A stretch of DNA of 64,000 nucleotides from Escherichia phage momo. A model generated the notes under the pieces. The model saw only the letters and a program-made list of their open reading frames with translations, ran no database searches and was not told the origin of the DNA. The DNA lies in sequence record MN850580.1; one strand, 5' to 3'. The translations under genes were made by a program, and so were the position numbers. The stretch's first letter is position 1. Each line of letters starts with the position of its first letter. Below are positions 2,853 through 14,360 of this stretch, piece after piece.

Positions 2853-4454
2853 TCAACGTCTAAGCCCCTCATATGGGTTTCCTCTCACTAAGTCTGTGTG
2901 AGCACCCATTGATGGTGGCTTGAATAATTTAACTTCGTTAAGACTGTTGAAAGCATCACTGGTAGCATCCACTTGGTCATCTTTAGTTTTGCCATCACCA
3001 CAAAAGCCTTCAAGCTCTTGGAAATAAGCTTCGTTCCAACTACCTCTCAAAACTTTTACAAGTCCAGCTTCAGAAGCAGCAGAAAACCCCGCAAAGCGGG
3101 TAACTTTATCTTTATTTGTTGGTTTGGCTCTTGCTCGATAACCTTTCTCGGCAAGTTTCCTGATGAGGGATGTTGCGTAGGATTTACCAGCAGCGCCTGG
3201 GTCTTGAGGGATAAAAATACCAGTTCGCTTACCGTCACTTTCAGCAGTCAAATTAATTTGTGTTTCGACTCCAGAGGGTCTATCTCTAAATCTTACTACA
3301 TCAATGATATAATAGCAACCGTCTTTTTTAGATTTACCCATCTTAACACCTGCTGTCCAGTCTGGATTAGGGTTAATTTCAGATGGTAAAGTTGCTGCTA
3401 AGTCCCATGCCCTAACATCAAATACATCCTCTGGGAGTGAATCAACAATTTCACACCATTGTCTTTGCCAATAGTTTGAACCTTCTGCACGAGCCTTCCA
3501 GTTACCGAAACGAAGTCTTGCAACGTTTACAGGGGTGTTGTTTTCCAACTTACCGCGATACTTTGGTTCTAAGAAGTCAAGAATTGGGTTATCATCAATC
3601 GTACCAGAGATGAAGGTGTATGTTTGAGGAATCTCAAGAGGGAACATTTCAAGAATCTTGTCTCTCTCCCAATCAGAAACCATCACACCATCATTCATTA
3701 CATACCAACGAATACGACCACACTTTTCAGGGTCTGGATAACCTTCTTCATCTAAGAATGGTTCTACCCAATCATAAATAAAGTGGTCTCTGTCTGGGTT
3801 CATGGAAATCTTCATGTATGAATCACCTTCAGCACCAGAACGTAGACGGGTTTGTAGGTATGAAATCTGTGAAGCAGAGAAGTGTGTACCTTCGTCAAAG
3901 TAAATAGCTGAGTATTCAATACCCTGATGACCTTCAGCGTGCTTTTCAAGTTCTAGGTAGGTAAACTTGATAGTCGCCCCAGAAGGGAATGTGATAGTCA
4001 TTTTCTGCTCGTGAGGAATCCCACCAAACTTACCAAATAGTTTCTTTGCAGCAGGCCATAAACCACCTTGTAACTGTGTTGTATTTCGACGGAAATATAC
4101 AGCATTATAGTTAGGGTCTTCAATAAATCTTAAAGAGTCCATTAACAATGCAGCAGTTTTACCAGCACCAGCAGCACCACCATAAAGAACCAAGTCAGCA
4201 TTAGTGTTTAAAAAGACCTCTTGAGAACCCGGTTGAGGGGCTACATAGTTCTTATCAGTCATCAATTTAAAGATAAGGCGAACTTGGTCTGGTGTGTATC
4301 TTAATAAAGTCAGAATTTGAGTTGGAAGGAATTTAGAGGGGTCTTTACCGAATGATTTGATAATTTCTTTTACTTCATCAGAAAGCCCCAACTCTCCAGC
4401 TAGGACTTTCCTAACATCTTCCACTCGCTTCTGCTTAACAGCATTTAAGTCCAT
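2853..4454 (-). CDS. terL: terminase large subunit
   Basis: Walker A LYGGAAGAGKTAAL near N-terminus, ~530 aa; start set at MDLNAVKQK preceded by GGAGGTG. Confidence 0.85.
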   Translation of the reverse strand: MDLNAVKQKRVEDVRKVLAGELGLSDEVKEIIKSFGKDPSKFLPTQILTLLRYTPDQVRLIFKLMTDKNYVAPQPGSQEVFLNTNADLVLYGGAAGAGKTAALLMDSLRFIEDPNYNAVYFRRNTTQLQGGLWPAAKKLFGKFGGIPHEQKMTITFPSGATIKFTYLELEKHAEGHQGIEYSAIYFDEGTHFSASQISYLQTRLRSGAEGDSYMKISMNPDRDHFIYDWVEPFLDEEGYPDPEKCGRIRWYVMNDGVMVSDWERDKILEMFPLEIPQTYTFISGTIDDNPILDFLEPKYRGKLENNTPVNVARLRFGNWKARAEGSNYWQRQWCEIVDSLPEDVFDVRAWDLAATLPSEINPNPDWTAGVKMGKSKKDGCYYIIDVVRFRDRPSGVETQINLTAESDGKRTGIFIPQDPGAAGKSYATSLIRKLAEKGYRARAKPTNKDKVTRFAGFSAASEAGLVKVLRGSWNEAYFQELEGFCGDGKTKDDQVDATSDAFNSLNEVKLFKPPSMGAHTDLVRGNPYEGLRR

Positions 4455-4475
4455 TAAGCACCTCCGCAAATAGAA

Positions 4476-4676
4476 TTATTCAGAGTCTGTAGCAGTCTCT
4501 TCTTTCTTAACTTCGAACTTTGCATCAACAGCATCAAGAAGTGCATCCATAGAGGCTTCTTTGATATCAATACCTGTTGCTACAGATAATCTATCTGCAA
4601 TTGCCATGATAGTGTTCTGCATAAATTCTAGCTTTTTGTTAGCTTCATAAAGTTCTTTATAAACGGTCTCACTCAT
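4476..4676 (-). CDS. hypothetical small acidic protein (upstream of terL)
   Basis: 66-aa ORF with GGAGA RBS. Confidence 0.35.
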   Translation of the reverse strand: MSETVYKELYEANKKLEFMQNTIMAIADRLSVATGIDIKEASMDALLDAVDAKFEVKKEETATDSE

Positions 4677-4712
4677 TATGTTTTCTCCAAATAATTAACC
4701 ATGTTTCTCCTT

Positions 4713-4736
4713 AAAAAAGACGGCACAGAGACCGTC
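4713..4736 (-). terminator. rho-independent terminator at distal end of tRNA array
   Basis: Minus strand GACGG-loop-CCGTC followed by TTTTTT. Confidence 0.5.
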
Positions 4737-4898
4737 AAGGAGAAACCACAATGTACGTCAGAGACATACTGTATAAGCCTTCTTATAAAGTATAACTCTG
4801 TAAAAAAGCCCTGTCTAAAAATACTCTTCGGTAGCGAAAGGAAGAATACTTATAGCAGGGCATTATTATTATTTTAATTGAGAGAGAGTAAAATAACT

Positions 4899-4974
4899 TG
4901 GAGAATCCGAAGGGACTCGAACCCTTATAAACCTGTTTTGCAGACAGGCACATATCCATTTCTGTCACGGATTC
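4899..4974 (-). tRNA. tRNA-Cys(GCA): tRNA-Cys (anticodon GCA), CCA encoded
   Basis: Manual cloverleaf: acceptor GAATCCG/CGGATTC, anticodon loop CUGCAAA, T-loop. Confidence 0.65.
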
Positions 4975-4978
4975 AAAT

Positions 4979-5071
4979 TGGAGGAAGATACCAGACTTGA
5001 ACTGGTACACCGATTTCTCAGCTACTGGCAGTTTAGCAAACTGCTCCCTTACCTTTTAGGGTTAATCTTCC
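4979..5071 (-). tRNA. tRNA-Ser(GCU): tRNA-Ser (anticodon GCU), long variable arm, CCA encoded
   Basis: 93 nt; acceptor GGAAGAT/ATCTTCC; anticodon loop UUGCUAA. Confidence 0.6.
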
Positions 5072-5072
5072 A

Positions 5073-5870
5073 TTATTTCTGTAATGCGCTCTTCATTTCT
5101 GGTGTTGCAATAGTGTCAATCACACCAGTTTTACAAGCATCGTCAAACCAGTCTGGTAAGATACCTGCTAAGAACCCATTGATATTCGTTTTAAGGTACT
5201 CTGCAATAAGGGCAGCTTCTTCTTCAATCATCTGCACAACTTCATCTGCATAAGCTGTAATCTTTGAAATACCTTCATTAATCTTACTGACAGCTTGGTT
5301 AGCTAAATCAGAAACAGTATCAAGACCCTTATCAATAGCATCTTGTAAGTCACTTAACACACCATTAACACTATCTAGTGTACTGTTCATCATGTCAATA
5401 GCTTTTTGACCATACTCTGTAGCAACACCCATGATACCACTGAATGGTGTACAACCAACTTGTTCTCCTGCTGCACCCATAACATTGGAATACCCCTTTG
5501 CTACCTGCATACGTGATGAAAACTCATCAATAGATTTTTGACCGTAGTCTGTCAGAGTTTTAGTAGTTGCTGTAGTGCTTGTAAGGCTTGTTGTAAAGCT
5601 GTTTAGAAGGACTGTTGTAAGTCCAGCAGCAACAAGTTTCTCCTTCATTGTAGGGTCTGTTACAGAACTAATAGAGCTTACAAGTGATGTAGAAGCAGCT
5701 ACGGTTCCACCGAGAACTGCTGCACCAGTAATAAGCGGGTTAGAGAACCCTTTACCAGTTTTTAAGAGATTAAAAATCTCCTTACCTTGTTCTGTCATCT
5801 CTTTCATTAAGCACCTTTGAAATTGGTAGTCCAGTGGGATTTGAACCCTCTTCTCATGTTTTTCAGACAC
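5073..5870 (-). CDS. hypothetical protein embedded in tRNA array
   Basis: 265-aa ORF between tRNA genes; Ser/Thr-rich middle region. Confidence 0.4.
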   Translation of the reverse strand: MSEKHEKRVQIPLDYQFQRCLMKEMTEQGKEIFNLLKTGKGFSNPLITGAAVLGGTVAASTSLVSSISSVTDPTMKEKLVAAGLTTVLLNSFTTSLTSTTATTKTLTDYGQKSIDEFSSRMQVAKGYSNVMGAAGEQVGCTPFSGIMGVATEYGQKAIDMMNSTLDSVNGVLSDLQDAIDKGLDTVSDLANQAVSKINEGISKITAYADEVVQMIEEEAALIAEYLKTNINGFLAGILPDWFDDACKTGVIDTIATPEMKSALQK

Positions 5871-5899
5871 GCGCTTTAACCATATAAGCTACTTGGACT
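5824..5899 (-). tRNA. tRNA-Phe(GAA): tRNA-Phe (anticodon GAA)
   Basis: Anticodon loop CUGAAAA, T-loop TTCAAAT, CCA encoded. Confidence 0.6.
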
Positions 5900-5905
5900 A
5901 TAAAT

Positions 5906-5981
5906 TGGGGTGACCTACGGGATTTGAACCCGTATAGACCATGTTCACAGCATGGGTCATTACCGTTTATGATAAGGCCAC
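5906..5981 (-). tRNA. tRNA-His(GUG): tRNA-His (anticodon GUG)
   Basis: Acceptor with one G-U pair; anticodon loop CUGUGAA; CCA encoded. Confidence 0.65.
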
Positions 5982-6012
5982 ATTTAAGGACTCTCGCAAG
6001 AATCCTTAGAAG

Positions 6013-6088
6013 TGGCAGCGGCATAAGGATTTGAACCTTAATAGGACAGCTTCAGAGGCTGCTGCATTGCCAGTTATGCTATACCGCT
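6013..6088 (-). tRNA. tRNA-Gln(CUG): tRNA-Gln (anticodon CUG)
   Basis: Anticodon stem GCAGC/GCUGU, loop CUCUGAA. Confidence 0.55.
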
Positions 6089-6093
6089 AAATT

Positions 6094-6172
6094 TGGTACT
6101 CCATATCGGATTCGAACCGATACATAACACAGATTTTAAGTCTGGCCTCTCTGCCAATTGGAGTAATGGAGC
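6094..6172 (-). tRNA. tRNA-Leu(UAA)?: tRNA with anticodon UAA (Leu by anticodon) but short variable loop
   Basis: Acceptor and T-arm clear; anticodon loop CUUAAAA; no long extra arm. Confidence 0.5.
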
Positions 6173-6174
6173 AT

Positions 6175-6250
6175 TGGCGGGGGATGTTGGAATTGAACCA
6201 ACTTCTTCGATTTCAAAGACCGAGGTTTTAACCTTGTAAACTAATCCCCT
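6175..6250 (-). tRNA. tRNA-Gln(UUG): tRNA-Gln (anticodon UUG)
   Basis: Anticodon stem UCGGU/AUCGA, loop CUUUGAA; possible 1-72 mismatch. Confidence 0.55.
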
Positions 6251-6258
6251 TTAAATCT

Positions 6259-6816
6259 TTACTTTCTCAGTGGATGAATAAAGAATGCCAACATAACTCT
6301 TTCCCTTGAGAATGCTCTTTCTTCTGGGACAACACTTTTTAGTTTCCATCCAACATAAATTCTCCAGTAAAACTGTTTACCAAAGATTTTAATTGACGGA
6401 ATAAAAGCGAATAATCCCCAAGCATTGTTGTTCCACATTAGGAGATAACCTGTCTGATTATCTTCAGGGTCAGAACTTACGTTGATATTACCTTTCCACT
6501 TAGTAACATCTTTTACATCTCTTCCTAATACATGGTAAGAGAAGTTATAAGCTTTGTTTCTCCAGAGCCATCCAACTCTCTGCATATAAACACCGAGCTT
6601 GCCAATCTTTCTAATCTTAGCCCATCTTTTAATGTGACCTTCATCACCATCAATAGGGTTGTCATATGTCTCCATCCATCTGAATCCAAAAGGTAGATGC
6701 CCTTTCTTCTCACTATAGAATGGAACTACAAAAGGTGCTAAGATAACTGCTAAGGTTGCTGCCAATGGGTCTAACAAAGCTAGGAAAATCCATGAAGCAT
6801 ACTTCAAATATCTCAT
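6259..6816 (-). CDS. hypothetical membrane protein embedded in tRNA array
   Basis: 185-aa ORF with hydrophobic N-terminal segment. Confidence 0.4.
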   Translation of the reverse strand: MRYLKYASWIFLALLDPLAATLAVILAPFVVPFYSEKKGHLPFGFRWMETYDNPIDGDEGHIKRWAKIRKIGKLGVYMQRVGWLWRNKAYNFSYHVLGRDVKDVTKWKGNINVSSDPEDNQTGYLLMWNNNAWGLFAFIPSIKIFGKQFYWRIYVGWKLKSVVPEERAFSRERVMLAFFIHPLRK

Positions 6817-6835
6817 TTAAATAGCCTCTTTAAAT

Positions 6836-6911
6836 TGGCGCAGGATAAGGGATTCGAACCCCTATTAACAGCTTCGTAGACTGCTGCTCTATCCATTTGA
6901 ACTAATCCTGC
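6836..6911 (-). tRNA. tRNA-Arg(ACG): tRNA-Arg (anticodon ACG)
   Basis: Perfect acceptor GCAGGAT/ATCCTGC; anticodon loop CUACGAA. Confidence 0.65.
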
Positions 6912-6916
6912 AAAAT

Positions 6917-6994
6917 TGGTGTTCCAAGACGGATTCGAACCGTCACTAGTACAAGGTTTGAGCTTGCATCCTCTGCCAATTGGGATATTGGAAC
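6917..6994 (-). tRNA. tRNA-Leu(CAA)?: tRNA with anticodon CAA (Leu by anticodon) but short variable loop
   Basis: Acceptor GUUCCAA/UUGGAAC; anticodon loop CUCAAAC. Confidence 0.5.
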
Positions 6995-6995
6995 A

Positions 6996-7070
6996 TGGTA
7001 CTCACTAAAGGACTTGAACCTTTTTCTTCATCTTGTAAGGGTGATGTTTTACCATATAAACTAAGCGAGT
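6996..7070 (-). tRNA. tRNA-Val(UAC): tRNA-Val (anticodon UAC)
   Basis: Anticodon loop CUUACAA; T-loop TTCAAGT. Confidence 0.55.
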
Positions 7071-7165
7071 ATGAAAGAGGTCTGAAGTTGTGCCGCTAAC
7101 TCAACTCCGTGGAATTTGTTACGGTCTTCAGTTGACACCAGCGGTCTTTCACTTGACCTCTGAAT

Positions 7166-7241
7166 TGGTGCTCCCACAAGGATTCGAACCCTGATAAGTT
7201 GCTTACAAGGCAACCGTAATAGCCAATTATACGATAGGAGC
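7166..7241 (-). tRNA. tRNA-Thr(UGU): tRNA-Thr (anticodon UGU)
   Basis: Anticodon stem GUUGC/GCAAC, loop CUUGUAA. Confidence 0.65.
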
Positions 7242-7248
7242 ATTAATT

Positions 7249-7323
7249 TGGAGCATCCAGAGGGAATCGAACCCTCAACCTCAGTTTGGAAGACTGTAAT
7301 TTTCCCGTTTAAACTATGGATGC
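7249..7323 (-). tRNA. tRNA-Gly(UCC): tRNA-Gly (anticodon UCC)
   Basis: Perfect acceptor GCAUCCA/UGGAUGC; anticodon loop CUUCCAA. Confidence 0.65.
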
Positions 7324-7329
7324 ACTAAT

Positions 7330-7403
7330 TGGTGGAGTCACTGAGAATTGAACTCAGTTCCCAAGTTTGCAAAACTCGAATTTTAACCATATAAACTATG
7401 ACC
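7330..7403 (-). tRNA. tRNA-Ala(UGC): tRNA-Ala (anticodon UGC)
   Basis: Acceptor GGGGUCA with G3-U70 pair (Ala identity element); anticodon loop UUUGCAA. Confidence 0.65.
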
Positions 7404-7410
7404 CCATTGT

Positions 7411-7486
7411 TTGGTACAGGTGGAGGGAATTGAACCCATCGTCTTACTGATTAAGAGTCAGCCGCATAACCATTTTGCTACACCTG
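7411..7486 (-). tRNA. tRNA-Lys(CUU): tRNA-Lys (anticodon CUU)
   Basis: Anticodon stem GCUGA/UCAGU, loop CUCUUAA; weak T-stem. Confidence 0.5.
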
Positions 7487-7493
7487 CATTAAT

Positions 7494-7571
7494 TTGGTAG
7501 GAGACAAGGGATTCGAACCCTCAAACATCTCGTTCTAAGCGAGATAGGTTTACCAATTACCGTCAATCTCC
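7494..7571 (-). tRNA. tRNA-Leu(UAG)?: tRNA with anticodon UAG (Leu by anticodon) but short variable loop
   Basis: Perfect anticodon stem UCUCG/CGAGA, loop CUUAGAA; 5-nt variable loop. Confidence 0.55.
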
Positions 7572-7830
7572 CATTAAATCTTTTTAGAGAACTTCTAAGA
7601 ACCTAAGCAACAAGGTTCCACAACAAGCTGTAATAACCTTAGAAGCCCTCTAAAAAGACCTAAAAAGGTCTTTGCATAGTCTTGTTTAATCCGGTGACTA
7701 GAACCTTTGGAGAGCTTGATATTATCTCTTCTCCGTGACACCTACTAGGTGCTTTACTGTGCGTGTACGACAATACACTAGGGATACCAAAGCAACATCC
7801 GAATGAAGCTTGGCTTTAAATCTTATTAGG

Positions 7831-7918
7831 CGGTAAGTAAAGGAGTCGAACCCTCACCGTATCTCTACAGTGGCAACTGTTTTCAAGACAGTTTGGCTAC
7901 CATTAGCCGCTACCTACC
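7831..7918 (-). tRNA. tRNA-Ser(UGA): tRNA-Ser (anticodon UGA), long variable arm, no encoded CCA
   Basis: Perfect anticodon stem ACUGU/ACAGU, loop CUUGAAA; discriminator G. Confidence 0.6.
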
Positions 7919-7931
7919 CCTAATAAGACTT

Positions 7932-8014
7932 TGGCATGGGACGGAGGAGTTGAACCACTTTGAAACGGTTTTGGAGGCCGTTGCTCATGCCTTAGAGTCT
8001 TAACATCGTCCCAC
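7932..8014 (-). tRNA. atypical tRNA-like gene (possible anticodon CCA, Trp) with extra nucleotides between acceptor and D region
   Basis: Clear acceptor GUGGGAC/GUCCCAU, T-arm and encoded CCA, but D-region does not fold canonically in manual fold. Confidence 0.4.
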
Positions 8015-8157
8015 ACTATAATTCGAAGCTTACCGTATTTTCACAACACTGTAAAGCCCCTTCTCAGATTATTTACATGTTCTGGAAAACATGAGATACA
8101 GACCACCTCCTTACACGGAGACCCGATAAGGTCGTCTAAGTAATCTGCTAACTAAAT

Positions 8158-8239
8158 TGGTCGAGGCGGCAGGACTCGAACCCGCATACTCCACTTACTC
8201 GGTTAACGGCGGTTTAGAAGACCGCTGAGATACGCCCCG
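8158..8239 (-). tRNA. atypical tRNA-like gene; one perfect 5-bp stem with loop CUUCUAA (UCU), no canonical D-arm
   Basis: Acceptor CGGGGCG/CGCCUCG, T-arm and CCA present; body folds ambiguously. Confidence 0.35.
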
Positions 8240-8487
8240 TAATTATCTTTAAAGACTCTCTTAGAAAGCCCTTAAAGATGCCCACCTTATTAATCATACC
8301 GTGGGCTAGTACGCCAAATTCTTTGATGAGGGATTGGAAGACCTCACTGGTGTTTAGCCTATCAAGCTACTGCCAGAAAAACATTGTCGTTTGCATTTAT
8401 TTTAAATTTGCAAAATAGACGCTACGCAACGAAAACTAAGGTTACTATAAAGTAGTCGCATCTCAATGTCAACAACTTTATTGAAAT

Positions 8488-8563
8488 TGGTACTGGTAGG
8501 TGGAATCGAACCACCGATGTTCCCTTATCAGGGGAGTGTTATAACCTTCTTAACTATACCAGC
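8488..8563 (-). tRNA. tRNA-Ile(GAU): tRNA-Ile (anticodon GAU)
   Basis: Anticodon loop CUGAUAA; T-arm GGUGG/CCACC. Confidence 0.6.
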
Positions 8564-8564
8564 T

Positions 8565-8641
8565 TGGAGGTTCAGATGGGAATCGAACCCACATTCATAG
8601 GGCTTATGAGACCCTTGCATTACCTTATCTGCGACTGAACC
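8565..8641 (-). tRNA. tRNA-Met(CAU): tRNA-Met (anticodon CAU)
   Basis: Perfect acceptor GGUUCAG/CUGAACC; anticodon loop CUCAUAA. Confidence 0.6.
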
Positions 8642-8645
8642 ATAT

Positions 8646-8720
8646 TGGTAGAAGTGGAGGGATTCGAACCCATCGCCTGTCAGATTAAAAGTCTGCCGCA
8701 TCACCATTCTGCTACACTTC
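8646..8720 (-). tRNA. tRNA-Lys(UUU): tRNA-Lys (anticodon UUU)
   Basis: Anticodon stem GCAGA/UCUGA (one G-U), loop CUUUUAA. Confidence 0.6.
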
Positions 8721-8872
8721 CATTAAATTATCTTTGTAGATAAGCTACCCAGACTTGCTTAAGGTCTGTAGCGATGTGACTTTTTGGGTTTAAATCTAGA
8801 ATTTACCCTTTCACCCTTTGTGGTCGCATACTCACAGGTAAGCTTAATAACTTATCTACAAAGATAATTACC

Positions 8873-9003
8873 AGACCGTTGTTTATCATCTTAAGTGCTA
8901 CCATTACACCAACTCGACCTCTGCCGAGTGAAGGAATCGAACCTTCGCCTTTTCTTTACCGAGAAATAGATTGTTTAAGTTTTGCTGTAAACGGTCTTCT
9001 GTA
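8873..9003 (-). repeat. tRNA-spacer hairpin repeat (CCAGACC...GGTCTTCTG) enclosing a T-arm-like hairpin
   Basis: Inverted termini CCAGACCGTT / AACGGTCTTCTG; internal GAAGG-AATCGAA-CCTTC with no matching acceptor stem. Confidence 0.4.
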
Positions 9004-9013
9004 AATTTGTTGA

Positions 9014-9113
9014 GCCAGACCAAGTTTTAAATTTTTTCAAAATTGAATTGGCTTGAAAATATCATACATTCTTGCTGTATTTGGTCTTCTACTCCTTTAA
9101 AGAATACTCGTAA
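9014..9113 (-). repeat. tRNA-spacer hairpin repeat (CCAGACC...GGTCTTCT)
   Basis: Same terminal inverted repeat as 8873-9003. Confidence 0.4.
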
Positions 9114-9152
9114 GAACTCTTTAAGGGAGGGGCTAAATAGCCCTCTCAAAAT

Positions 9153-9230
9153 TGGCGGTTACGAAGGGATTTGAACCCTCATCATCTCCCGTGACAGGGG
9201 AGTATTTTAACCAAATTAAACTACATAACC
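9153..9230 (-). tRNA. tRNA-Asp(GUC): tRNA-Asp (anticodon GUC)
   Basis: Perfect anticodon stem CUCCC/GGGAG, loop CUGUCAC. Confidence 0.65.
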
Positions 9231-9235
9231 TTTAT

Positions 9236-9323
9236 TGGTGTGCCGTGTAGGAGTCGAACCTACCGAGTCTCAATGACAAGGGATTTACAGTCCCCACCGC
9301 TACCATCTACGGGATAACGACAC
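9236..9323 (-). tRNA. tRNA-Tyr(GUA): tRNA-Tyr (anticodon GUA), long variable arm
   Basis: 85-nt body; anticodon loop CUGUAAA. Confidence 0.6.
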
Positions 9324-9331
9324 ATTTAATT

Positions 9332-9408
9332 TGGCGGTTAGTCAGGGATTCGAACCCTGTGCCATTCGCTTAACAGGCGACCGCACATACCTTATGTGCT
9401 TCCTAACC
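9332..9408 (-). tRNA. tRNA-Asn(GUU): tRNA-Asn (anticodon GUU)
   Basis: Anticodon loop CUGUUAA; T-arm CAGGG/CCCUG. Confidence 0.55.
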
Positions 9409-9418
9409 TTAATACATT

Positions 9419-9481
9419 GCCAGACCGTGTTTTTTCTTTTATCCGCAAAAAAGTATTTTGTTGCTGAATACGGTCTTCTGC
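9419..9481 (-). repeat. tRNA-spacer hairpin repeat (CAGACCGT...ACGGTCTTCTG)
   Basis: Terminal inverted repeat, immediately 3' of tRNA in transcript orientation. Confidence 0.4.
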
Positions 9482-9486
9482 AAAAT

Positions 9487-9563
9487 TGGAGGCGGGTGCA
9501 GGAGTCGAACCTGCCGATACCATGCTAATGAGACATGTGAGACGCCCTTTCTCTATACCCGCA
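9487..9563 (-). tRNA. tRNA-Met/Ile2(CAU): tRNA with anticodon CAU (initiator Met, elongator Met or lysidine Ile2)
   Basis: Anticodon stem CAUGU/GCAUG, loop CUCAUUA; possible 1-72 mismatch. Confidence 0.5.
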
Positions 9564-9574
9564 ATTCTTAATGA

Positions 9575-9648
9575 CCAGACCAAATCTCTTCTTTGTCCGA
9601 TTTACCTTCAGATGAATAAGATTAAGTTTGCTGTAATTGGTCTTCTGT
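9575..9648 (-). repeat. tRNA-spacer hairpin repeat (CCAGACCAA...TTGGTCTTCTG)
   Basis: Terminal inverted repeat as in the other spacers. Confidence 0.4.
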
Positions 9649-9654
9649 CAAAAC

Positions 9655-9732
9655 TGGCGTTCCAGAAGGGATTTGAACCCTCAGATATCCACTTTGAAAG
9701 AGTGGTGACTATACCATTTTGTCTACTGGAAC
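9655..9732 (-). tRNA. tRNA-Glu(UUC): tRNA-Glu (anticodon UUC)
   Basis: Perfect acceptor GUUCCAG/CUGGAAC; anticodon loop CUUUCAA. Confidence 0.65.
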
Positions 9733-9739
9733 ATTAATT

Positions 9740-9816
9740 TGGTCTCTGTTGGAGGACTTGAACCTCCGGCCTTACCGCCCCAAACGGAACGCTCTACCAA
9801 TCTGAGCTAAACAGAG
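9740..9816 (-). tRNA. tRNA-Pro(UGG): tRNA-Pro (anticodon UGG)
   Basis: Perfect acceptor CUCUGUU/AACAGAG; D-arm GCUC/GAGC; anticodon loop UUUGGGG. Confidence 0.65.
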
Positions 9817-9934
9817 ATAAACTTTTCAAACTCTATGTAACCACTTTAACATTATTTTTTAGTGGTTGTCAAGAACTTTTTTAAAATATTTTTCAGTATC
9901 TTAGAAAAGCTCTCATTTCGTTTCTATGTAGAAC

Positions 9935-9963
9935 ATATTAAAGGGTATCAAACACATTGTCAA
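9935..9963 (-). promoter_or_regulatory. sigma70-like promoter for the tRNA array
   Basis: Minus strand TTGACA, 17-nt spacer, TAATAT, about 120 nt upstream of first tRNA. Confidence 0.5.
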
Positions 9964-9981
9964 TACCCTTTTTAAAACTTT

Positions 9982-11397
9982 TTACCAGATATAACGGTCA
10001 ATCATTACTGCTTTGAGCATTACACTGATTGGGTCAAACTTCTCACCACCAAGCAGAGCTTTTAAAGTGGCTGGAGAGAACCCTGATACCATTGCTACAC
10101 CGTTATCCTTAACAGATACTTCGCAAGTACCATTACGGTTTGCTAAGTACCAGAATACCAGTTGTGGCATCTCATATCCAGCTTTTTTGTACTTACTCTG
10201 AATTGCTTCAAAGTTTGTACGACCGTTAGCTCCATCAACCTGATTGAACTCCATATCGGAGAAGATGATAAGCTTACTTGGCATATCTTTCTGAGTCAAG
10301 TTGTTTCTTTTACCTGTTTCAAGAATGCGGTCAAAAGCTGCTTGTAAGTTAGTTGAGCCATATTCAACGTGTCGCATCACCTGACGATGACGGTTTCGTA
10401 AATCACCACTCAGTTCGATGAAGTGAGGGTTTGTTGAATAAACCATTAACTCATTCTTAAAGCAACCTGTATTGCGTTCTGCTACATACAAGGCAAGTGA
10501 TACACCAATATCCAGAGCAGTAATGGAGCCAAAATTCACCCAAGACATTGAACTTGATACATCAGACATACACAAGATGTTTTCACCTTCTGCCATCCAG
10601 TTTGGTAGTGCTTTCCACTGCTCATTAGCAACATCTGCATTACCATACTTGACAGATTTAATCACATCGTATGGGTAAACAGCACCAGCGTTAATCTTAG
10701 TCTCACCTTTTGATAAGGACTCGATGTAAGATTTGTAACGCTCTCCATCTTTACGGTTAAACAGTTTTTGGTAACGTGCAGCAGCAAGTGAAGGAATCTT
10801 ACTGTAGTCAATCTTACCAAACTCGTTAGCAGAGATTTTTTGCTCAACTGTATCAGATAGTGCAGACAACAGTGTGCGGTACTCTTTCTCACTCAAGTTG
10901 GCAAACTTGCAGAAACGTTTTACAAACTGCTTATGACGTGGTTTGACTCGTGGTAACCACTTAGCTGCCAAACCTGCTGTTGCAGGGTCTAGTAATGCTG
11001 CTTCTAAATGCTTGAAGGCATCTGTCTCGAAACGAGTACCCACGAAGATTTTGAAATCATCAAAGCGACCAAGCTCTGCAATCTTATCCATAATGCGAAG
11101 AACCTGTGTAGACTCTAGAACTTTATCTTCAATCGCTTGAAGTAAAACAGTTCGGAAAGCTTTACGCTCACCCATACCTTCTCGTACATCTCGCATATGC
11201 AGTAAAATACGAACTGCAACATCAACATCCTCATGCAAAGCTTTGTAGAACAAGTCTGGTAAGATTTCTACATTGCTACGGCTAGAACCAGCAGCTTTGT
11301 AAAAGTCCACAAGAGCAGACATTGATGAAGTATGGTTTACAGCACCATTTTCAGTTCGACCTGCATGAAGGTGCACATGTTTAAATAATTCGCTCAT
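9982..11397 (-). CDS. vWA-domain protein with helical N-terminal region (possibly Ro60/TROVE-like or DUF2828-like)
   Basis: 471 aa; C-terminal MIDAS-like motif SDVSSSM followed by GSTN and FSDME; alpha-helical N-terminal ~270 aa. Confidence 0.5.
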   Translation of the reverse strand: MSELFKHVHLHAGRTENGAVNHTSSMSALVDFYKAAGSSRSNVEILPDLFYKALHEDVDVAVRILLHMRDVREGMGERKAFRTVLLQAIEDKVLESTQVLRIMDKIAELGRFDDFKIFVGTRFETDAFKHLEAALLDPATAGLAAKWLPRVKPRHKQFVKRFCKFANLSEKEYRTLLSALSDTVEQKISANEFGKIDYSKIPSLAAARYQKLFNRKDGERYKSYIESLSKGETKINAGAVYPYDVIKSVKYGNADVANEQWKALPNWMAEGENILCMSDVSSSMSWVNFGSITALDIGVSLALYVAERNTGCFKNELMVYSTNPHFIELSGDLRNRHRQVMRHVEYGSTNLQAAFDRILETGKRNNLTQKDMPSKLIIFSDMEFNQVDGANGRTNFEAIQSKYKKAGYEMPQLVFWYLANRNGTCEVSVKDNGVAMVSGFSPATLKALLGGEKFDPISVMLKAVMIDRYIW

Positions 11398-11478
11398 ATT
11401 TTACTCTCTTCTCTCATTTGTTGTTTGATGTGACAGACTTTAGAGCAACTTTGTAGAGTCTGTCAACACCTTTTAAAA

Positions 11479-11850
11479 TTATTTTTTGAGAGTCGCTACA
11501 GCAGAGAACGTTGGTTTGTTATCTGTCTGTTGTTGACCACCACTATCAGGAGTCTTCTTAGTGTCTGCTGCAAGTGCTTTCATCTCACCTGCTGAGTGAG
11601 TAAAGATAGTTTTACCGACCTCAATCATACTCTTGATGGTTACGTCATCTGTGTTTAACCCGAACTCTGCAAGCTTAGCAGCATCCCTTGTAACAATCGC
11701 TTCAAATAACTTTGCAGCAAACTCAGCAGAATTGTCAATGGTCAGTTGAGCTTTTACAAGTGAGCTTTTGTTGCGAGAGCCTTTTGGTCTTCCAGATGGG
11801 TTTCCAGATTGGCCTTTTTTAAACTGGCCTTTGTTTGTTCTGTTTTTCAT
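11479..11850 (-). CDS. hypothetical protein with basic N-terminal motif
   Basis: 123 aa beginning MKNRTNKGQFKKGQSGNPSGRPKGSRNK. Confidence 0.45.
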   Translation of the reverse strand: MKNRTNKGQFKKGQSGNPSGRPKGSRNKSSLVKAQLTIDNSAEFAAKLFEAIVTRDAAKLAEFGLNTDDVTIKSMIEVGKTIFTHSAGEMKALAADTKKTPDSGGQQQTDNKPTFSAVATLKK

Positions 11851-12099
11851 TGGTATGCCTCTTATAAGACCTCTTAAAAGGCTTTTAAGATAAAAGATAG
11901 ATATCCAGAAAGATATCTGTTTAAATAGCCTTTTTAGAGGAACCTTTTAAGTTATCTTCTAAGTATTTATAAGCCTACACCTTGTCAAGTACTTTGTCAA
12001 CAACTTTTTTAACTTGCAATAGTTCTTGACTTGTTGTATGGATTACTGTACCATCTTACTTAAAGCTGTAGGTCTGCCTTGTTCTACAAAGGAGACTTA

Positions 12100-12261
12100 A
12101 TGAGAAAATCAAATAAACCGAAGAAAGGTAAGAATACCAATCACTGTAAGGAATCAAAAAGGGTAGAGTTAATCTACTATTCATCCTCTGAAATTGGTCT
12201 GTACCTGTTCTTTCAAAATTACAGAAGACAAGAGGATTATCTATGTGTAGTTCCCAATTAG
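12100..12261 (+). CDS. hypothetical small basic protein
   Basis: ATG at 12100 preceded by AAGGAGA; ORF track start is an upstream alternative. Confidence 0.3.
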   Translation: MRKSNKPKKGKNTNHCKESKRVELIYYSSSEIGLYLFFQNYRRQEDYLCVVPN

Positions 12262-12476
12262 AAATCGCAGATATTATAGATTTATATCAAACTGCAAAGA
12301 GTCATGGCTATATAACCTCAATTGGAAAGAATAGTCACTATGATGCTTTGACTGGAATGTATTTCAGGGCAATGGCTCAATCTAGTGAACAACACTTAAT
12401 GGTTTCTTCCAGTGAGTTTACTTCGTTTCTCTATTGCAGCAAAATTATAAATCGCAGGAGAACTGAAAAATGTTAA
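12243..12476 (+). CDS. hypothetical protein
   Basis: 77-aa ORF in plus-strand cluster. Confidence 0.3.
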   Translation: MCSSQLEIADIIDLYQTAKSHGYITSIGKNSHYDALTGMYFRAMAQSSEQHLMVSSSEFTSFLYCSKIINRRRTEKC

Positions 12477-13060
12477 CAGTAAGTTTTAATTACAATAGTG
12501 ATGGCTCTGTATCAATTAATTCACCATATGCAAATGACCTACTTAAAGAGCTAGTCAATCAGTGTGATAGAGGTCTTCACTATGTTCAAAATTCTTTTAA
12601 ACAGAAGACTATTGCTAATAACTTGATGCGTGTAACAGTGACGGCATCGAATCCAAATTATGACTTTGATAGTGAAAGTCCGTACTCATTAGTTGCGCTT
12701 GGAGAGAGCAGCCAATTCAAACTTGTTTGCCACGACTCAGAAACATTTCTTAAGGTATTTTCCAACCTTATCCATAATAATAAGTACAGCTACGTTGATA
12801 GTAGTGTAAACTTCTATCCAGCAAACTATACATGTTTGTTGGTTGATAATATGAGAAAAAGTAAGCAAGAGCCTACAGAAATTTCATTTGATGTGAACTC
12901 TAGTCCAGACGCAGAAACAAGTAAGAACTTTGATATGAGTTACGCATTGTCACTTAGTAAGAAATCCGAGTTCATTGATTATGTCAATGGATTTGGTTTT
13001 AAGTTTGATGAGAGTATGAATCTTAAAAAACTTAAGAACCTACTTAAGACCAAAGCTTAA
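12470..13060 (+). CDS. hypothetical protein
   Basis: 196-aa ORF followed by hairpin. Confidence 0.45.
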   Translation: MLTVSFNYNSDGSVSINSPYANDLLKELVNQCDRGLHYVQNSFKQKTIANNLMRVTVTASNPNYDFDSESPYSLVALGESSQFKLVCHDSETFLKVFSNLIHNNKYSYVDSSVNFYPANYTCLLVDNMRKSKQEPTEISFDVNSSPDAETSKNFDMSYALSLSKKSEFIDYVNGFGFKFDESMNLKKLKNLLKTKA

Positions 13061-13107: not shown

Positions 13108-13479
13108 ATGAAAGCTAAGAGTGCAAAAGACTTTTATTGCTTCCTACAATCCTATATCAATTCCGTGCAAAATGGTGAAAGGTACAACCTTAATGATGTT
13201 ATCCCAACACCTTTGACATGGAGACTCAGTAAGTGGCCTGAAGAAGATATTACACCAACAAGCGAACAGCGTACCTACAAACCTGAAATCAATATTCCAG
13301 ATTCTGAGAATCTATTATATCCAATGTTCCATATTGTTGGTCTTGGAAGATTCCTTATGGATATCCAGTATGTAATTGGTAAAGGTTATAAGGTTAAAGG
13401 TATTGTTGTTGGTGATGTATCTCCGCATCACAAAGGTTATTTTAGACTAAACGCACATTTAGAGGCTAAAAAGAAATGA
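13108..13479 (+). CDS. hypothetical protein, paralog of N-terminal domain of next gene
   Basis: 123 aa; shared motifs with 13476-14360 (K..DF..F....I..V..G.RY, FMD(I/L)QYxI). Confidence 0.5.
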   Translation: MKAKSAKDFYCFLQSYINSVQNGERYNLNDVIPTPLTWRLSKWPEEDITPTSEQRTYKPEINIPDSENLLYPMFHIVGLGRFLMDIQYVIGKGYKVKGIVVGDVSPHHKGYFRLNAHLEAKKK

Positions 13480-14360
13480 TTAAAGCAAAGACTTACCCAG
13501 ACTTCAAAGAGTTTGTGAAGGGTTTCATTGCAAATGTAAAGGCTGGTAAGAGATATGATTTTAGAACATATCAAGAGGCTATTTTACCACTTACCTATAG
13601 TTCATATTGGCCTGAAGCTGATATTGCAGAAGTTGAGAAGTTTGACTACAAACCAGACTACAAAGTTCCATTTAGTGACGAATTGCTTTACAGTGTTGGT
13701 GCACAGATGAGAACTGCTGATTTCTTCATGGATTTGCAGTATGCAATCATCAATGGTAAAGATGTTGACACAATTTACTGTGAATGGTTGGCAAGAGTTA
13801 AGCCGTTCTCAATGTTGAATGCTAAGTTGAAGGATGCTATTAAGCCACCAGCAATTACTCAGCAACCGACAGGTCAAACAGTCAATGAGGGTGGCACACT
13901 TACTCTAAGCATTCTAGCAACTAACGCCACTGGATATCAGTGGAAGAAGGATGGTGAGGACATCCCTAGTGCCAATTCTGCAACTTACACAAAACAGTCA
14001 GTAGCACCTTCTGACGCTGGTTCATACACTTGTGTTGTATCTGGAGAGGGTGGAACAAGTGTTACTTCAGATGCAGCAACAGTTACTGTGAATGCACTTC
14101 CAGTAATCACTCAACAGCCAGCAAATCAAGAAATCACTGAAGGTGAGACCTTAACGCTGAATGTTGTGGCTACTGGTGCAACAAGTTACCAGTGGAAGAA
14201 AGGTGAGGAAGACATCCTCGATGCAACTACTGCAACTTACACCAAAGAAGGTGCAACCACCGCTGATGCAGGAAGCTACACTTGTGTAGTGACTGGCGCA
14301 GGTGGCTCTGTAACATCTAACGCAGCAACAGTTACAGTTAATCCAGCAGGGGAGGCATAA
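13476..14360 (+). CDS. paralogous N-domain fused to two tandem Ig-like (I-set type) domains
   Basis: Two repeats TLTL...ATGYQWKKDGEDI...ATYTK...DAGSYTCVV.G.GG..TS.AATVTVN. Confidence 0.6.
   Translation: MIKAKTYPDFKEFVKGFIANVKAGKRYDFRTYQEAILPLTYSSYWPEADIAEVEKFDYKPDYKVPFSDELLYSVGAQMRTADFFMDLQYAIINGKDVDTIYCEWLARVKPFSMLNAKLKDAIKPPAITQQPTGQTVNEGGTLTLSILATNATGYQWKKDGEDIPSANSATYTKQSVAPSDAGSYTCVVSGEGGTSVTSDAATVTVNALPVITQQPANQEITEGETLTLNVVATGATSYQWKKGEEDILDATTATYTKEGATTADAGSYTCVVTGAGGSVTSNAATVTVNPAGEA

What the first reader, a model, noticed from the sequence alone, without database searches (positions are those of the whole stretch)
9982..11397. vWA-domain protein immediately upstream of the tRNA array: possible Ro60-like RNA-binding partner
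The 471-aa protein has a C-terminal vWA domain with MIDAS-like SDVSSSM and a long helical N-terminal region, an architecture reminiscent of Ro60/TROVE-type proteins. It is the first gene of the minus-strand unit that continues into the tRNA array, which contains tRNA-like elements lacking canonical D/anticodon arms and a T-arm-only hairpin. Bacterial Ro60 orthologs are known to bind Y-like RNAs with tRNA-like modules. Speculative.
Basis: inference. Interest (0 to 1): 0.5.

Follow-up and report, generated by a model that had tools for sequence, protein, structure and literature searches.

The report
Phage Ro60-like protein with Y-like RNAs
This Felix O1-type phage gene is predicted to fold like the RNA-binding autoantigen Ro60, and four previously unannotated small structured RNAs lie just downstream of it, one with a rearranged tRNA shape, which look like its RNA partners and recur next to related genes in many other phages.

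Summary
The ORF at 9982-11397(-), 471 aa, is real. It belongs to DUF2828+DUF7788 (PHROG 850). The window is a Felixounavirus, 99.9% identical to phage LinBro over this gene.

The 97%-identical Bas63 gp130 was already called Ro60-like in a 2024 preprint, which showed that it counters the Ppl defence system.

The new result is four Y-RNA-like elements on the gene strand inside the tRNA array: Y1 9650-9572, Y2 9483-9417, Y3 9094-9012 and Y4 9004-8868. All share a covarying basal helix and a UUNCAGCAA motif. Y4 carries a permuted tRNA-like module (T-arm, closed acceptor stem, D-arm), as in bacterial YrlA.

Related elements lie on the gene strand next to 38-47%-identical homologues in at least 46 of 75 viral loci, mostly within 0.5 kb. 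No match was found on the opposite strand. Protein-RNA binding is untested.

The parts
9982..11397 (-). Gene for the 471-aa Ro60-like protein (DUF2828 + DUF7788; PHROG 850 'RNA-binding protein'); orthologue of Bas63 gp130
10603..11397 (-). N-terminal all-helical, TROVE-like domain (aa 1-~265), with invariant R40, R69, D70, R72, G74, G76, E77, R78, E108, G110, R111, D113, D114, K146, W147
   Evidence: DSSP of the model. Invariant columns of a 41-sequence alignment. 397 of 471 residues superpose on Ro60, which is more than the vWA domain alone can supply. No Pfam TROVE hit.
10033..10590 (-). C-terminal vWA domain (aa ~270-455) with a complete MIDAS motif (D279-x-S281-x-S283, T349, D381); DVSSS is encoded at 10549-10563
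   Evidence: The MIDAS residues are invariant in 41 homologues. hhalign to a Ro60 profile gives 86.8%, E 4e-6, over aa 238-443. Pfam vWA_Ro60 hits in 8 of 41 family members. Sequence checked.
11437..11466 (-). Sigma-70-like promoter match directly upstream of the gene (TTGACA-18-TAAAGT)
   Evidence: Consensus scan, 10 of 12 matches. The number of such matches in the region does not exceed shuffles, so this is weak evidence.
9843..9963 (-). Two sigma-70-like promoter matches between the stop codon and tRNA-Pro (9963-9935 and 9872-9843); a 12-bp hairpin at 9971-9940 overlaps the first
   Evidence: Consensus scan; weak evidence.
9572..9650 (-). Y-like RNA 1 (79 nt): outer helix UGAC/GUCA, AGA/G internal loop, inner helix AGACCAA/UUGGUCU, UUACAGCAA motif, variable upper part
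   Evidence: The pattern AGAAGACC-N3-6-CAGCAA gives 4 hits against 0.01 expected. Fold. Model R2, built only from other phages: 32.5 bits, E 9e-4. Orthologues in Moogle, SUSP2 and Sf15.
9417..9483 (-). Y-like RNA 2 (67 nt): outer helix UUGC/GCAA, AGA/G loop, inner helix AGACCGU/ACGGUCU, AUUCAGCAA
   Evidence: R2: 36.3 bits, E 1.4e-4. The outer helix covaries between genera: UUGC/GCAA versus UUAC/GUAA.
9012..9094 (-). Y-like RNA 3 (83 nt): outer helix GAGU/GCUC, AGA/G loop, inner helix AGACCAA/UUGGUCU, AUACAGCAA
   Evidence: R2: 33.8 bits, E 4.6e-4. Orthologues.
8868..9004 (-). Y-like RNA 4 (137 nt), of YrlA type: the same basal module (UUAC/GUAA, AGA/G, AGACCGUU/AACGGUCU, UUACAGCAA) closing a permuted tRNA-like domain
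   Evidence: Fold. RNAalifold on 8 Ounavirinae sequences. Model R1: 102 bits, though this sequence was in the training set. Untrained relatives score 40-90 bits.
8895..8946 (-). Permuted tRNA-like module of Y4: T-arm GAAGG-UUCGAUU-CCUUC, then directly a 7-bp acceptor-like stem closed by AGAG (ACUCGGC/GUCGAGU), then U8-G9 and the D-arm GUGU-AAUGGUA-GCAC
   Evidence: The descriptor scan finds this as the only hit in 4000-12500 on both strands. Three acceptor-stem pairs show compensatory changes across Ounavirinae genera. Sequence checked.
4899..9816 (-). tRNA array (25 ARAGORN tRNAs plus a weak tRNA-Arg at 8161-8239) in which Y1-Y4 are interspersed
   Evidence: The same synteny is seen in LinBro, Bas63, Moogle, SUSP2, Sf15 and Felix O1.

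Best explanation
The gene encodes a compact, sequence-divergent phage relative of Ro60: a helical TROVE-like ring domain followed by a MIDAS-bearing vWA domain.

I propose that it forms ribonucleoprotein particles with four phage-encoded Y-like RNAs (Y1-Y4) that are transcribed on the same strand within the first 1.1 kb of the tRNA array. The conserved basal module of each RNA would be the protein-binding site, analogous to the Y-RNA stem bound by Ro60. That module consists of a helix closed by A-U and G-C pairs, an AGA/G internal loop in the Ounavirinae, and the adjacent UUNCAGCAA strand.

The variable upper module would be the functional adaptor. In Y4 it is a tRNA mimic comprising the T-arm/acceptor minihelix and the D-arm elbow, as in bacterial YrlA. 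Such a module could recruit or decoy enzymes that recognise tRNA. The MIDAS face of the vWA domain would contact a protein partner.

The biological role is counter-defence and RNA-metabolism control during infection. The orthologue Bas63 gp130 is needed to overcome the Ppl (ATPase-PHP) defence and transfers that protection to T7.

What is shown: the ORF, family membership, the Ro60-like predicted fold, the conserved MIDAS motif, the existence, covariation and gene linkage of the RNAs, and the published anti-Ppl phenotype of the orthologue.

What is inferred: protein-RNA binding, which RNA surface is bound, and how Ppl is inhibited.

For: Sequence. hhalign to a Ro60 profile gives 86.8%, E 4e-6, covering the last TROVE helix (AVYPYDV aligned to RIHPFHIL) and the vWA domain. 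Pfam vWA_Ro60 hits occur in 8 of 41 members. The MIDAS residues and many Arg/Lys are invariant.

RNAs in the window. There are 4 pattern hits against 0.01 expected, all on the minus strand and each with a matching 3' strand. All four adopt the same fold. Helices covary between paralogues and between genera.

Linkage in other phages. All 120 R1 hits (E<=1) in 937 kb lie on the gene strand. In the 26-sequence alignment, 8 of 8 basal-helix pairs show compensatory changes. The covariation score is 0.62 against 0.18 in shuffles (0 of 500 reach it) and 0.05-0.13 in the slid controls. The strict descriptor gives 76 hits on the gene strand and 0 on the opposite strand, with about 1 per strand in shuffles; 58 of the 76 lie within 500 nt of the gene. 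Model R2, trained without any Ounavirinae sequence, finds exactly Y1-Y3 in the 64-kb window, and 27 of its 27 hits are on the gene strand. Elements also occur beside homologues that have no tRNA within 6 kb.

Function of the orthologue: PMC11482910.

Precedent. Bacterial and phage Ro60 genes have Y RNAs encoded within 4 kb on the same strand, and YrlA carries a T-arm, acceptor-stem, D-arm tRNA-like domain (PMC4201824). Phage phiLo Ro60 binds two adjacent Yrl RNAs and host PNPase (PMC12135203).
Against: There is no direct evidence that the protein binds any RNA.

The N-terminal domain has no detectable sequence similarity to TROVE, so its homology rests on a predicted structure.

The known Ro60-binding motifs (GGUCCGA and GNCGAA) are absent. 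The GGCGAAGG in Y4 is simply the variable-loop/T-stem junction and is not conserved in Felix O1 or Moogle.

No Rfam family, including Y_RNA, matches.

gp130 alone protects T7 from Ppl without the phage RNAs, so the RNAs are not needed for that activity.

About 20 of the 75 homologue loci show no element with any of the three detectors.

The covariation counts come from model-fitted alignments and from loci that are partly related to each other.
Confidence: 0.62

Rival explanations
1. The protein is a purely protein-directed inhibitor. Its MIDAS/vWA domain binds and blocks the Ppl defence protein, or another host factor. The Ro60-like shape is an inherited scaffold with no RNA role. The neighbouring structured RNAs serve the tRNA array or gene expression, for example as processing or stability elements or as leaders and trailers of the gene.
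For: gp130 expressed alone from a plasmid or from the T7 genome restores plaquing on Ppl cells. The MIDAS motif is complete and invariant. In many distant loci the element ends 4-50 nt before the start codon or begins 20-70 nt after the stop codon, as a UTR element would.
Against: The RNA elements follow the gene even where no tRNA lies within 6 kb, so they are not features of the tRNA array. A tRNA-mimic module closed by a conserved helix, next to a Ro60-fold gene, is the known Rsr-YrlA arrangement. The N-terminal domain keeps many invariant Arg/Lys residues. A UTR role and an RNP role are not mutually exclusive, since Salmonella Y RNAs are processed from the rsr operon transcript; that last point is from my own knowledge of the field and was not checked here.
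Confidence: 0.2
2. The Y-like elements are decayed or rearranged tRNA genes and repeated spacers of the array (tandem-duplication debris), with no function of their own.
For: Y4 looks like the 3' half of one tRNA joined to the 5' half of another. In 6 of 17 relatives the acceptor-stem loop begins with N-CCA, as at a tRNA 3' end. The four window copies share a repeated 5' sequence.
Against: Helices are maintained by compensatory changes across genera and across phages whose proteins are only ~40% identical. Basal modules are more conserved than the interiors. Short elements with no tRNA-like part carry the same module. Hits are tied strictly to the gene strand and to gene proximity. Tandem tRNAs in the same arrays are not picked up by the descriptor, with two identifiable exceptions.
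Confidence: 0.06
3. The protein is a virion or assembly component that uses its vWA domain for adhesion or assembly. The Ro60 similarity is a modelling artefact.
For: vWA domains are common in adhesive and assembly proteins. The N-terminal homology rests on a prediction alone.
Against: The orthologue is dispensable for plaque formation except on Ppl cells and acts in trans for an unrelated phage. gp130 is not mentioned in the text of the Bas63 virion cryo-EM study, which reports 23 gene products. The model is confident, and only Ro60 proteins match its full length.
Confidence: 0.03

Closest known systems
Bas63 (Escherichia phage JohannRWettstein) gp130, PhageMaP preprint PMC11482910
   Same: This is the same gene: 97% identical, 471 aa, in the same position directly upstream of tRNA-Pro. 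The preprint reports it as structurally similar to Ro60 and as a counter to the Ppl defence that can be transferred to T7. The authors speculate that some array 'tRNAs' are Y RNAs.
   Different: The preprint names no RNA. The candidates found here are not among the annotated tRNAs. They lie in the gaps between tRNAs, where public records carry either no annotation or small hypothetical ORFs.
Ro60 / Rsr with Y RNAs (Xenopus and human Ro60; Deinococcus Rsr-Yrn1; Salmonella Rsr-YrlA/YrlB)
   Same: A predicted ring-plus-vWA fold with a MIDAS motif. Several small RNAs encoded beside the gene on the same strand. Each RNA is closed by a helix formed from its 5' and 3' ends, with a conserved motif next to that helix. 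One RNA carries a tRNA-like domain in the order T-arm, acceptor-like stem-loop, D-arm, as in YrlA, and shorter RNAs lack it, as in YrlB.
   Different: The protein is 471 aa rather than ~535 aa. There is no Pfam TROVE match, and sequence similarity is limited to the last helix plus the vWA domain. The conserved RNA motif is UUNCAGCAA rather than GGUCCGA or GNCGAA. There is no Rfam match. No rtcB or rtcA neighbours were seen in the loci I inspected.
Thermus phage phiLo Ro60 with Yrl1/Yrl2 (PDB 9kop, 9l5y; PMC12135203)
   Different: phiLo Ro60 is a recognisable TROVE protein; even so, the Ro60 profile detects it at only E 5e-5 over 70 aa. Its Yrl RNAs carry CGAA motifs and lie upstream of the gene. 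No tRNA-like module or tRNA array is described for it.
Pfam DUF2828 / DUF7788 family (PHROG 850)
   Same: Full-length member. The family has 8,925 representatives of 50%-identity clusters at E<=1e-3. It also occurs in giant eukaryotic viruses.
   Different: The family has no assigned function in Pfam. The 'RNA-binding protein' label in PHROG and RefSeq is an annotation, not a tested function.

Membership tests
Ro60 / TROVE proteins | TROVE domain recognisable by sequence (Pfam PF05731) | tested here: not met
   No TROVE hit for the protein or for any of 41 homologues, even at E<=10. phmmer and hmmsearch against PDB sequences find no Ro60. hhalign to a Ro60 profile aligns only aa 238-443.
Ro60 / TROVE proteins | Fold: helical-repeat ring domain followed by a vWA domain | tested here: met
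Ro60 / TROVE proteins | vWA domain with a MIDAS motif (DxSxS...T...D) | tested here: met
   D279, S281, S283, T349 and D381 are invariant in 41 homologues. Pfam vWA_Ro60 hits in 8 of 41 members. hhalign 86.8%.
Ro60 / TROVE proteins | Binds Y RNA on the outer surface and single-stranded RNA ends in the central cavity | not testable with these tools
   This needs EMSA, CLIP or a solved complex.
Ro60 / TROVE proteins | Candidate Y RNAs encoded near the gene on the same strand | tested here: met
   Y1-Y4 lie 330-1115 nt downstream on the minus strand. The same linkage is seen in at least 46 of 75 loci with distant homologues.
YrlA-type bacterial Y RNAs (Chen et al. 2014, PMC4201824) | tRNA-like domain in the order T stem-loop, acceptor-like stem-loop, D stem-loop, with tRNA-invariant loop nucleotides | tested here: met
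   Y4 has T-loop UUCGAUU, a 7-bp closed stem abutting the T-stem, U8, and D-loop AAUGGUA (A14, G18, G19, A21). Three stem pairs covary. The A15:C48 combination does not form the Levitt pair.
YrlA-type bacterial Y RNAs (Chen et al. 2014, PMC4201824) | 5' and 3' ends pair to close the RNA | tested here: met
   The closing helix has 8 of 8 pairs with compensatory changes and 93.8% of cells paired.
YrlA-type bacterial Y RNAs (Chen et al. 2014, PMC4201824) | GNCGAA(N0-1)G motif near the 5' end | tested here: not met
   The conserved 5' motif is UU(U/A)C(A/C)GCAA. The GGCGAAGG in Y4 is the variable-loop/T-stem junction and is lost in Felix O1 and Moogle.
YrlA-type bacterial Y RNAs (Chen et al. 2014, PMC4201824) | Match to a YrlA or Y_RNA covariance model | tested here: inconclusive
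   No Rfam 15 family other than tRNA fragments matches at E<=1 in 4000-12500 or at E<=10 in 8722-9152. I could not confirm that a YrlA model is in the library, and the published model was not available.
DUF2828 / DUF7788 (PHROG 850) | Pfam and PHROG profile matches above the curated cut-offs | tested here: met
   DUF7788: 148.9 bits (cut-off 27.1). DUF2828: 102.2 bits (cut-off 29). PHROG 850: 609 bits, full length.

The most novel reading that the evidence does not exclude
DUF2828 proteins and the Y-like RNAs described here form a second, very large and previously unrecognised branch of Ro60 ribonucleoproteins. It spans thousands of phage lineages and reaches giant eukaryotic viruses. It has its own RNA recognition code, a basal helix plus UUNCAGCAA. 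In phages the tRNA-shaped module of the RNP would act as a decoy or adaptor against RNA- or tRNA-directed host immunity such as Ppl, which would explain why the gene travels with tRNA arrays.
Probability: 0.3. Interest if true: 0.85.

Novelty: new variant of a known kind. Interest (0 to 1): 0.68.

Why it matters
Ro60 and Y RNAs are conserved from bacteria to humans, and Ro60 is a major autoantigen, yet their core function is still debated.

A phage protein with a Ro60 fold already has a clean genetic phenotype: it counters the uncharacterised Ppl defence and can be moved to T7. If the RNAs identified here are its partners, that phenotype comes with defined RNA ligands, a conserved binding-site motif and natural variants with and without the tRNA mimic.

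This makes several questions directly testable in E. coli:
- what a Ro60-type RNP does;
- why Y RNAs mimic tRNA;
- how Ppl is neutralised.

It would also give a function and an RNA partner to a domain-of-unknown-function family with thousands of members. It would correct public annotations that place hypothetical ORFs over these RNAs.

Tried and rejected
1. Sequence searches of the protein and of its family profile against PDB found no Ro60.

2. Pfam at E<=10 found no TROVE domain.

3. A database search with a Ro60 profile returned only vertebrate Ro60 proteins, which were too uniform to deepen the profile. The enlarged profile still aligned only the C-terminal part.

4. Rfam gave no Y_RNA-like hit. 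The weak hits to Dicty_Class_I_RNA at 9421-9475, MIR473, tmRNA and Plastid-ycf2 are judged to be chance or antisense-tRNA matches.

5. The supplementary YrlA alignment of Chen et al. was not available, so I could not build the published model.

6. I first took GGCGAAGG in Y4 for the YrlA GNCGAA motif. I rejected this because it is not conserved.

7. A loose stem+CAGCA descriptor showed no strand bias (488 versus 477 hits). Only the stricter descriptor and the covariance models are informative.

8. Two T-AS-D descriptor hits (L056 3033-3088 and L061 12484-12539) are tandem tRNAs and were discarded.

9. One strict-descriptor hit in the window (10179-10339) lies inside the ORF and is taken as a false positive.

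10. The outermost 9-bp stem in the first MFE fold of Y4 is not supported in the other genera.

11. The MAFFT alignment of the long elements was out of register in the acceptor-like stem and the D-arm, so the pair counts for those helices (73% and 54%) understate them.

12. A search for RNA-repair neighbours (RtcB, ligases) in two distant loci found none.
Full report
**What the window is.** The 1,416-nt ORF is 99.9% identical to Escherichia phage LinBro. It is 97-99% identical to about 120 other Felixounavirus records, where it is annotated variously as 'RNA-binding protein', 'vWFA protein' or 'hypothetical protein'. The local gene order is a DUF5681 small protein, this gene, then a tRNA array, all on one strand. 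That order is conserved in LinBro, Bas63, Felix O1, Moogle, SUSP2 and Sf15.

**Checking the observation.** The ORF at 9982-11397(-) encodes 471 aa. SDVSSSM is at aa 278-284. ARAGORN finds 25 tRNAs at 4899-9816, all on the minus strand. A T-arm hairpin lies outside any called tRNA at 8946-8930(-). The gene is not the first of the minus-strand block, because the DUF5681 gene at 11479-11850 precedes it. Sigma-70-like matches lie both before the gene and between the gene and tRNA-Pro, although such matches are no more frequent here than in shuffled sequence.

**The protein family.** Pfam assigns DUF2828 and DUF7788, and PHROG 850 ('RNA-binding protein') matches over the full length. The family is large: a profile of 41 homologues finds 8,925 representatives of 50%-identity clusters at E<=1e-3. 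The MIDAS residues D279, S281, S283, T349 and D381 are invariant. So are many basic residues in the N-terminal half, including R40, R69, R72, R78, R111 and K146.

**The predicted fold.** An AlphaFold2 model built on that alignment is confident, with pLDDT 89.7 and pTM 0.89.
- With Foldseek against the PDB, the ten best hits are all Ro60/TROVE structures: Thermus phage phiLo Ro60, Xenopus and human Ro60, and Deinococcus Rsr. They score E 1e-8 to 4e-7 and TM 0.52-0.65 over 510-570 columns. The next hits cover the vWA domain only.
- Against viral models, the family's own members come first. They include proteins of giant eukaryotic viruses and then a Gordonia phage 'Ro-like RNA binding protein'.

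**Sequence-level links to Ro60.** The link is partial. No TROVE Pfam hit is found, even at E<=10, and there is no PDB sequence hit. Eight of 41 members do hit Pfam vWA_Ro60. I recalled the human Ro60 sequence from memory and checked it against PDB entry 9nen, where it differed at one residue. I then built a profile from vertebrate, hemichordate and Deinococcus Ro60 sequences. hhalign gives 86.8% probability (E 4e-6) for aa 238-443 against Ro60 317-525, which is the last TROVE helix plus the vWA domain. The same Ro60 profile detects the genuine phage TROVE protein phiLo Ro60 at only E 5e-5 over 70 residues, so the missing N-terminal signal is not strong evidence against homology.

**What is already published.** Bas63 gp130 is this gene: 97% identical and in the same position. 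The PhageMaP preprint (PMC11482910) reports four things:
- deleting it cripples Bas63 on cells carrying the Ppl defence (an ATPase plus PHP-domain protein), and complementation rescues the phage;
- gp130 alone, from a plasmid or inserted into T7, restores T7 plaquing on Ppl cells;
- some array 'tRNAs' might be Y RNAs.

The protein-level idea is therefore not new. I found no paper that identifies the RNAs.

**The RNAs in the window.** Around the orphan T-arm, the minus strand reads: T-arm GAAGG-UUCGAUU-CCUUC, directly followed by a 7-bp hairpin ACUCGGC-AGAG-GUCGAGU, then U-G, then a D-arm GUGU-AAUGGUA-GCAC. This is a circularly permuted tRNA core in which the acceptor stem is closed by a loop. 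It has the same order as the tRNA-like domain of bacterial YrlA (PMC4201824). The module sits on a long closing helix.

In an alignment of eight Ounavirinae from three genera, the T-arm and D-arm are invariant. The acceptor-like stem has three different sequences, ACUCGGC/GUCGAGU, ACACG/CGUGU and ACCCUUC/GAAGGGU, and each keeps its pairing. Three pairs show compensatory changes.

The 5' strand of the closing helix and its neighbouring motif recur. The pattern AGAAGACC-N3-6-CAGCAA occurs four times in the 64-kb window, all on the minus strand between 8982 and 9646, against 0.01 expected. Each copy has a GGUCUGG 3' partner. All four elements fold in the same way:
- a 4-bp outer helix that differs between copies but stays complementary (UGAC/GUCA, UUGC/GCAA, GAGU/GCUC, UUAC/GUAA);
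- an AGA/G internal loop;
- a 7-8-bp inner helix AGACCNN/NNGGUCU whose last two pairs covary;
- the motif UUNCAGCAA, followed by a variable interior.

Y1-Y3 are short (67-83 nt), and Y4 (137 nt) holds the tRNA-like module. Orthologues in Moogle, SUSP2 and Sf15 keep the basal module almost unchanged while the interiors diverge. The outer helix of Y2 switches between UUGC/GCAA and UUAC/GUAA. Public records either leave these stretches unannotated or place small hypothetical ORFs over them.

**Linkage to the gene in other phages.** I fetched 80 viral loci that encode homologues. Seventy-five of these proteins are only 38-47% identical to the query. Thirty-one of the 80 loci have tRNAs within 6 kb, and all 282 of those tRNAs are on the gene strand.
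- A descriptor for T-arm, closed stem and D-arm found clean permuted tRNA-like modules beside distant homologues. Each is enclosed by a different closing helix, preceded by UU(U/A)C(A/C)GCAA and followed by (C/U)CU-G(A/U)UAA.
- Covariance model R1, built from 15 such elements, gave 120 hits at E<=1 in 937 kb searched on both strands. All were on the gene strand. They include untrained elements at 40-90 bits.
- Forty of the 75 loci have an R1 hit that does not overlap a tRNA, and in 35 loci that hit is within 1 kb of the gene.
- On the 26 best matches, the closing helix has compensatory changes at 8 of 8 pairs. The overall covariation score is 0.62, against 0.18 in shuffles (0 of 500 reach it) and 0.05-0.13 in the slid controls. 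That alignment is fitted to the model, which favours the structure.
- A strict basal-module descriptor gave 76 hits on the gene strand and none on the other, with about one per strand in shuffles. Fifty-eight of the 76 lie within 500 nt of the gene. In the window it finds only Y1-Y4 plus one hit inside the ORF. A looser descriptor shows no strand bias, so base composition is not the cause.
- Element lengths are bimodal, about 50-66 nt and about 90-135 nt.
- Model R2 was built from 28 short elements, none from the Ounavirinae. In the window it finds exactly Y2, Y3 and Y1 (36.3, 33.8 and 32.5 bits; E 1e-4 to 9e-4). It adds seven loci that had no strict-descriptor hit on the gene strand, and all 27 of its hits are on the gene strand.

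Combined, at least 46 of the 75 loci carry an element within about 1.5 kb of the gene. Many of these loci have no tRNA nearby, so the RNAs track the gene rather than the tRNA array. A 148-kb phage shows the same layout as the window: the gene, then three Y-like elements, then the tRNA array.

**Interpretation.** The most economical reading is a Ro60-type RNP. The protein would bind the conserved basal module, and the variable upper module would serve as an adaptor. In Y4 that adaptor is a tRNA mimic: the 12-bp T/acceptor stack plus the D/T elbow. The MIDAS face would engage a protein partner.

Known precedents are Rsr-Y RNA-PNPase in bacteria and phiLo Ro60-Yrl-PNPase in a phage. Because gp130 alone protects T7, inhibition of Ppl probably needs only the protein, or the protein plus host RNA. 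The phage RNAs would then gate or redirect the protein, or serve a second function related to tRNA. From my own knowledge, unchecked here, PHP-domain enzymes include an exoribonuclease of E. coli, so an RNA-directed Ppl is conceivable. That point is speculation.

**Limits.**
- No binding data exist.
- The N-terminal homology rests on a predicted structure whose coordinates I could not inspect.
- E-values from the shortened model calibration are rough.
- Several loci are related to each other, so the counts overstate the number of independent observations.
- About 20 loci show no element with any detector.

**Verdict.** The protein assignment is already in the literature for the orthologue. The RNA partner family, with its own conserved motif and permuted tRNA-like modules, appears to be undescribed in Rfam 15 and in the searched literature.

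Noticed in passing
window 8161-8239 (-): A weak tRNA (Rfam 31.7 bits) that ARAGORN missed. It has a proper T-arm at 8185-8169. The equivalent position is annotated as tRNA-Arg (codon AGA, so anticodon UCU) in Bas63 and as tRNA-Arg in LinBro.
   Followed up: partly
window 5073-5807 (-) and 6259-6816 (-): Two protein-coding genes (DUF7217, E 2e-87; DUF7338, E 4e-62) lie inside the tRNA array on the tRNA strand. In Felix O1, HNH endonuclease genes are also annotated within the array.
   Followed up: partly
window 13476-14360 (+): A protein with Ig-like repeats, syntenic with Bas63 gp124 ('immunoglobulin-like domain protein'). It is 294 aa here against 460 aa in Bas63, so it probably has fewer Ig repeats. 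The Bas63 cryo-EM paper describes a Hex-Dec capsid decoration protein with a variable number of Ig-like domains and a decoration gene outside the structural module; I suspect but did not confirm that this is the same protein. LinBro labels it 'tail protein'.
   Followed up: no
loci L006 (~3105), L066 (7563-7618), L076 (7843-7901 and 10527-10582), L085 (38-99), L056 (7440-7577): In 6 of 17 permuted tRNA-like modules the loop that closes the acceptor-like stem begins with N-CCA (GCCA, ACCA or CCCA), as if a tRNA 3' end were fused to a 5' end. This suggests origin from tRNA, or processing by RNase P or 3'-end enzymes. The window copy has AGAG instead.
   Followed up: partly
window 11479-11850 (-): A 123-aa DUF5681 protein (PHROG 4114) with an N-terminal GNPSGRPKG motif lies immediately upstream in every Ounavirinae locus inspected. 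I did not test whether it is functionally linked to the Ro60-like gene.
   Followed up: no
BFVD hits: Close structural relatives of this phage protein (TM 0.78-0.87) occur in giant eukaryotic viruses (Pithovirus, Cafeteria roenbergensis virus, a Mimiviridae member). Papers that mention DUF2828 concern plants. The family therefore spans phages and eukaryote-associated genomes.
   Followed up: no
window 9940-9971 (-): A 12-bp hairpin starts 11 nt after the stop codon of the gene and overlaps the first promoter-like site of the tRNA array (9963-9935). It could be a terminator or attenuator, or an occluded promoter.
   Followed up: no
L042 5786-5910; L024 1529-1647: Some relatives have an intermediate form in which the T-arm is followed directly by the D-arm with no acceptor-like hairpin. 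Others have unrelated hairpins in the upper module, so that module is evolutionarily plastic.
   Followed up: partly
window 2853-4469 (-): Large terminase subunit (Terminase_6N and Terminase_6C) downstream of the tRNA array on the same strand.
   Followed up: no
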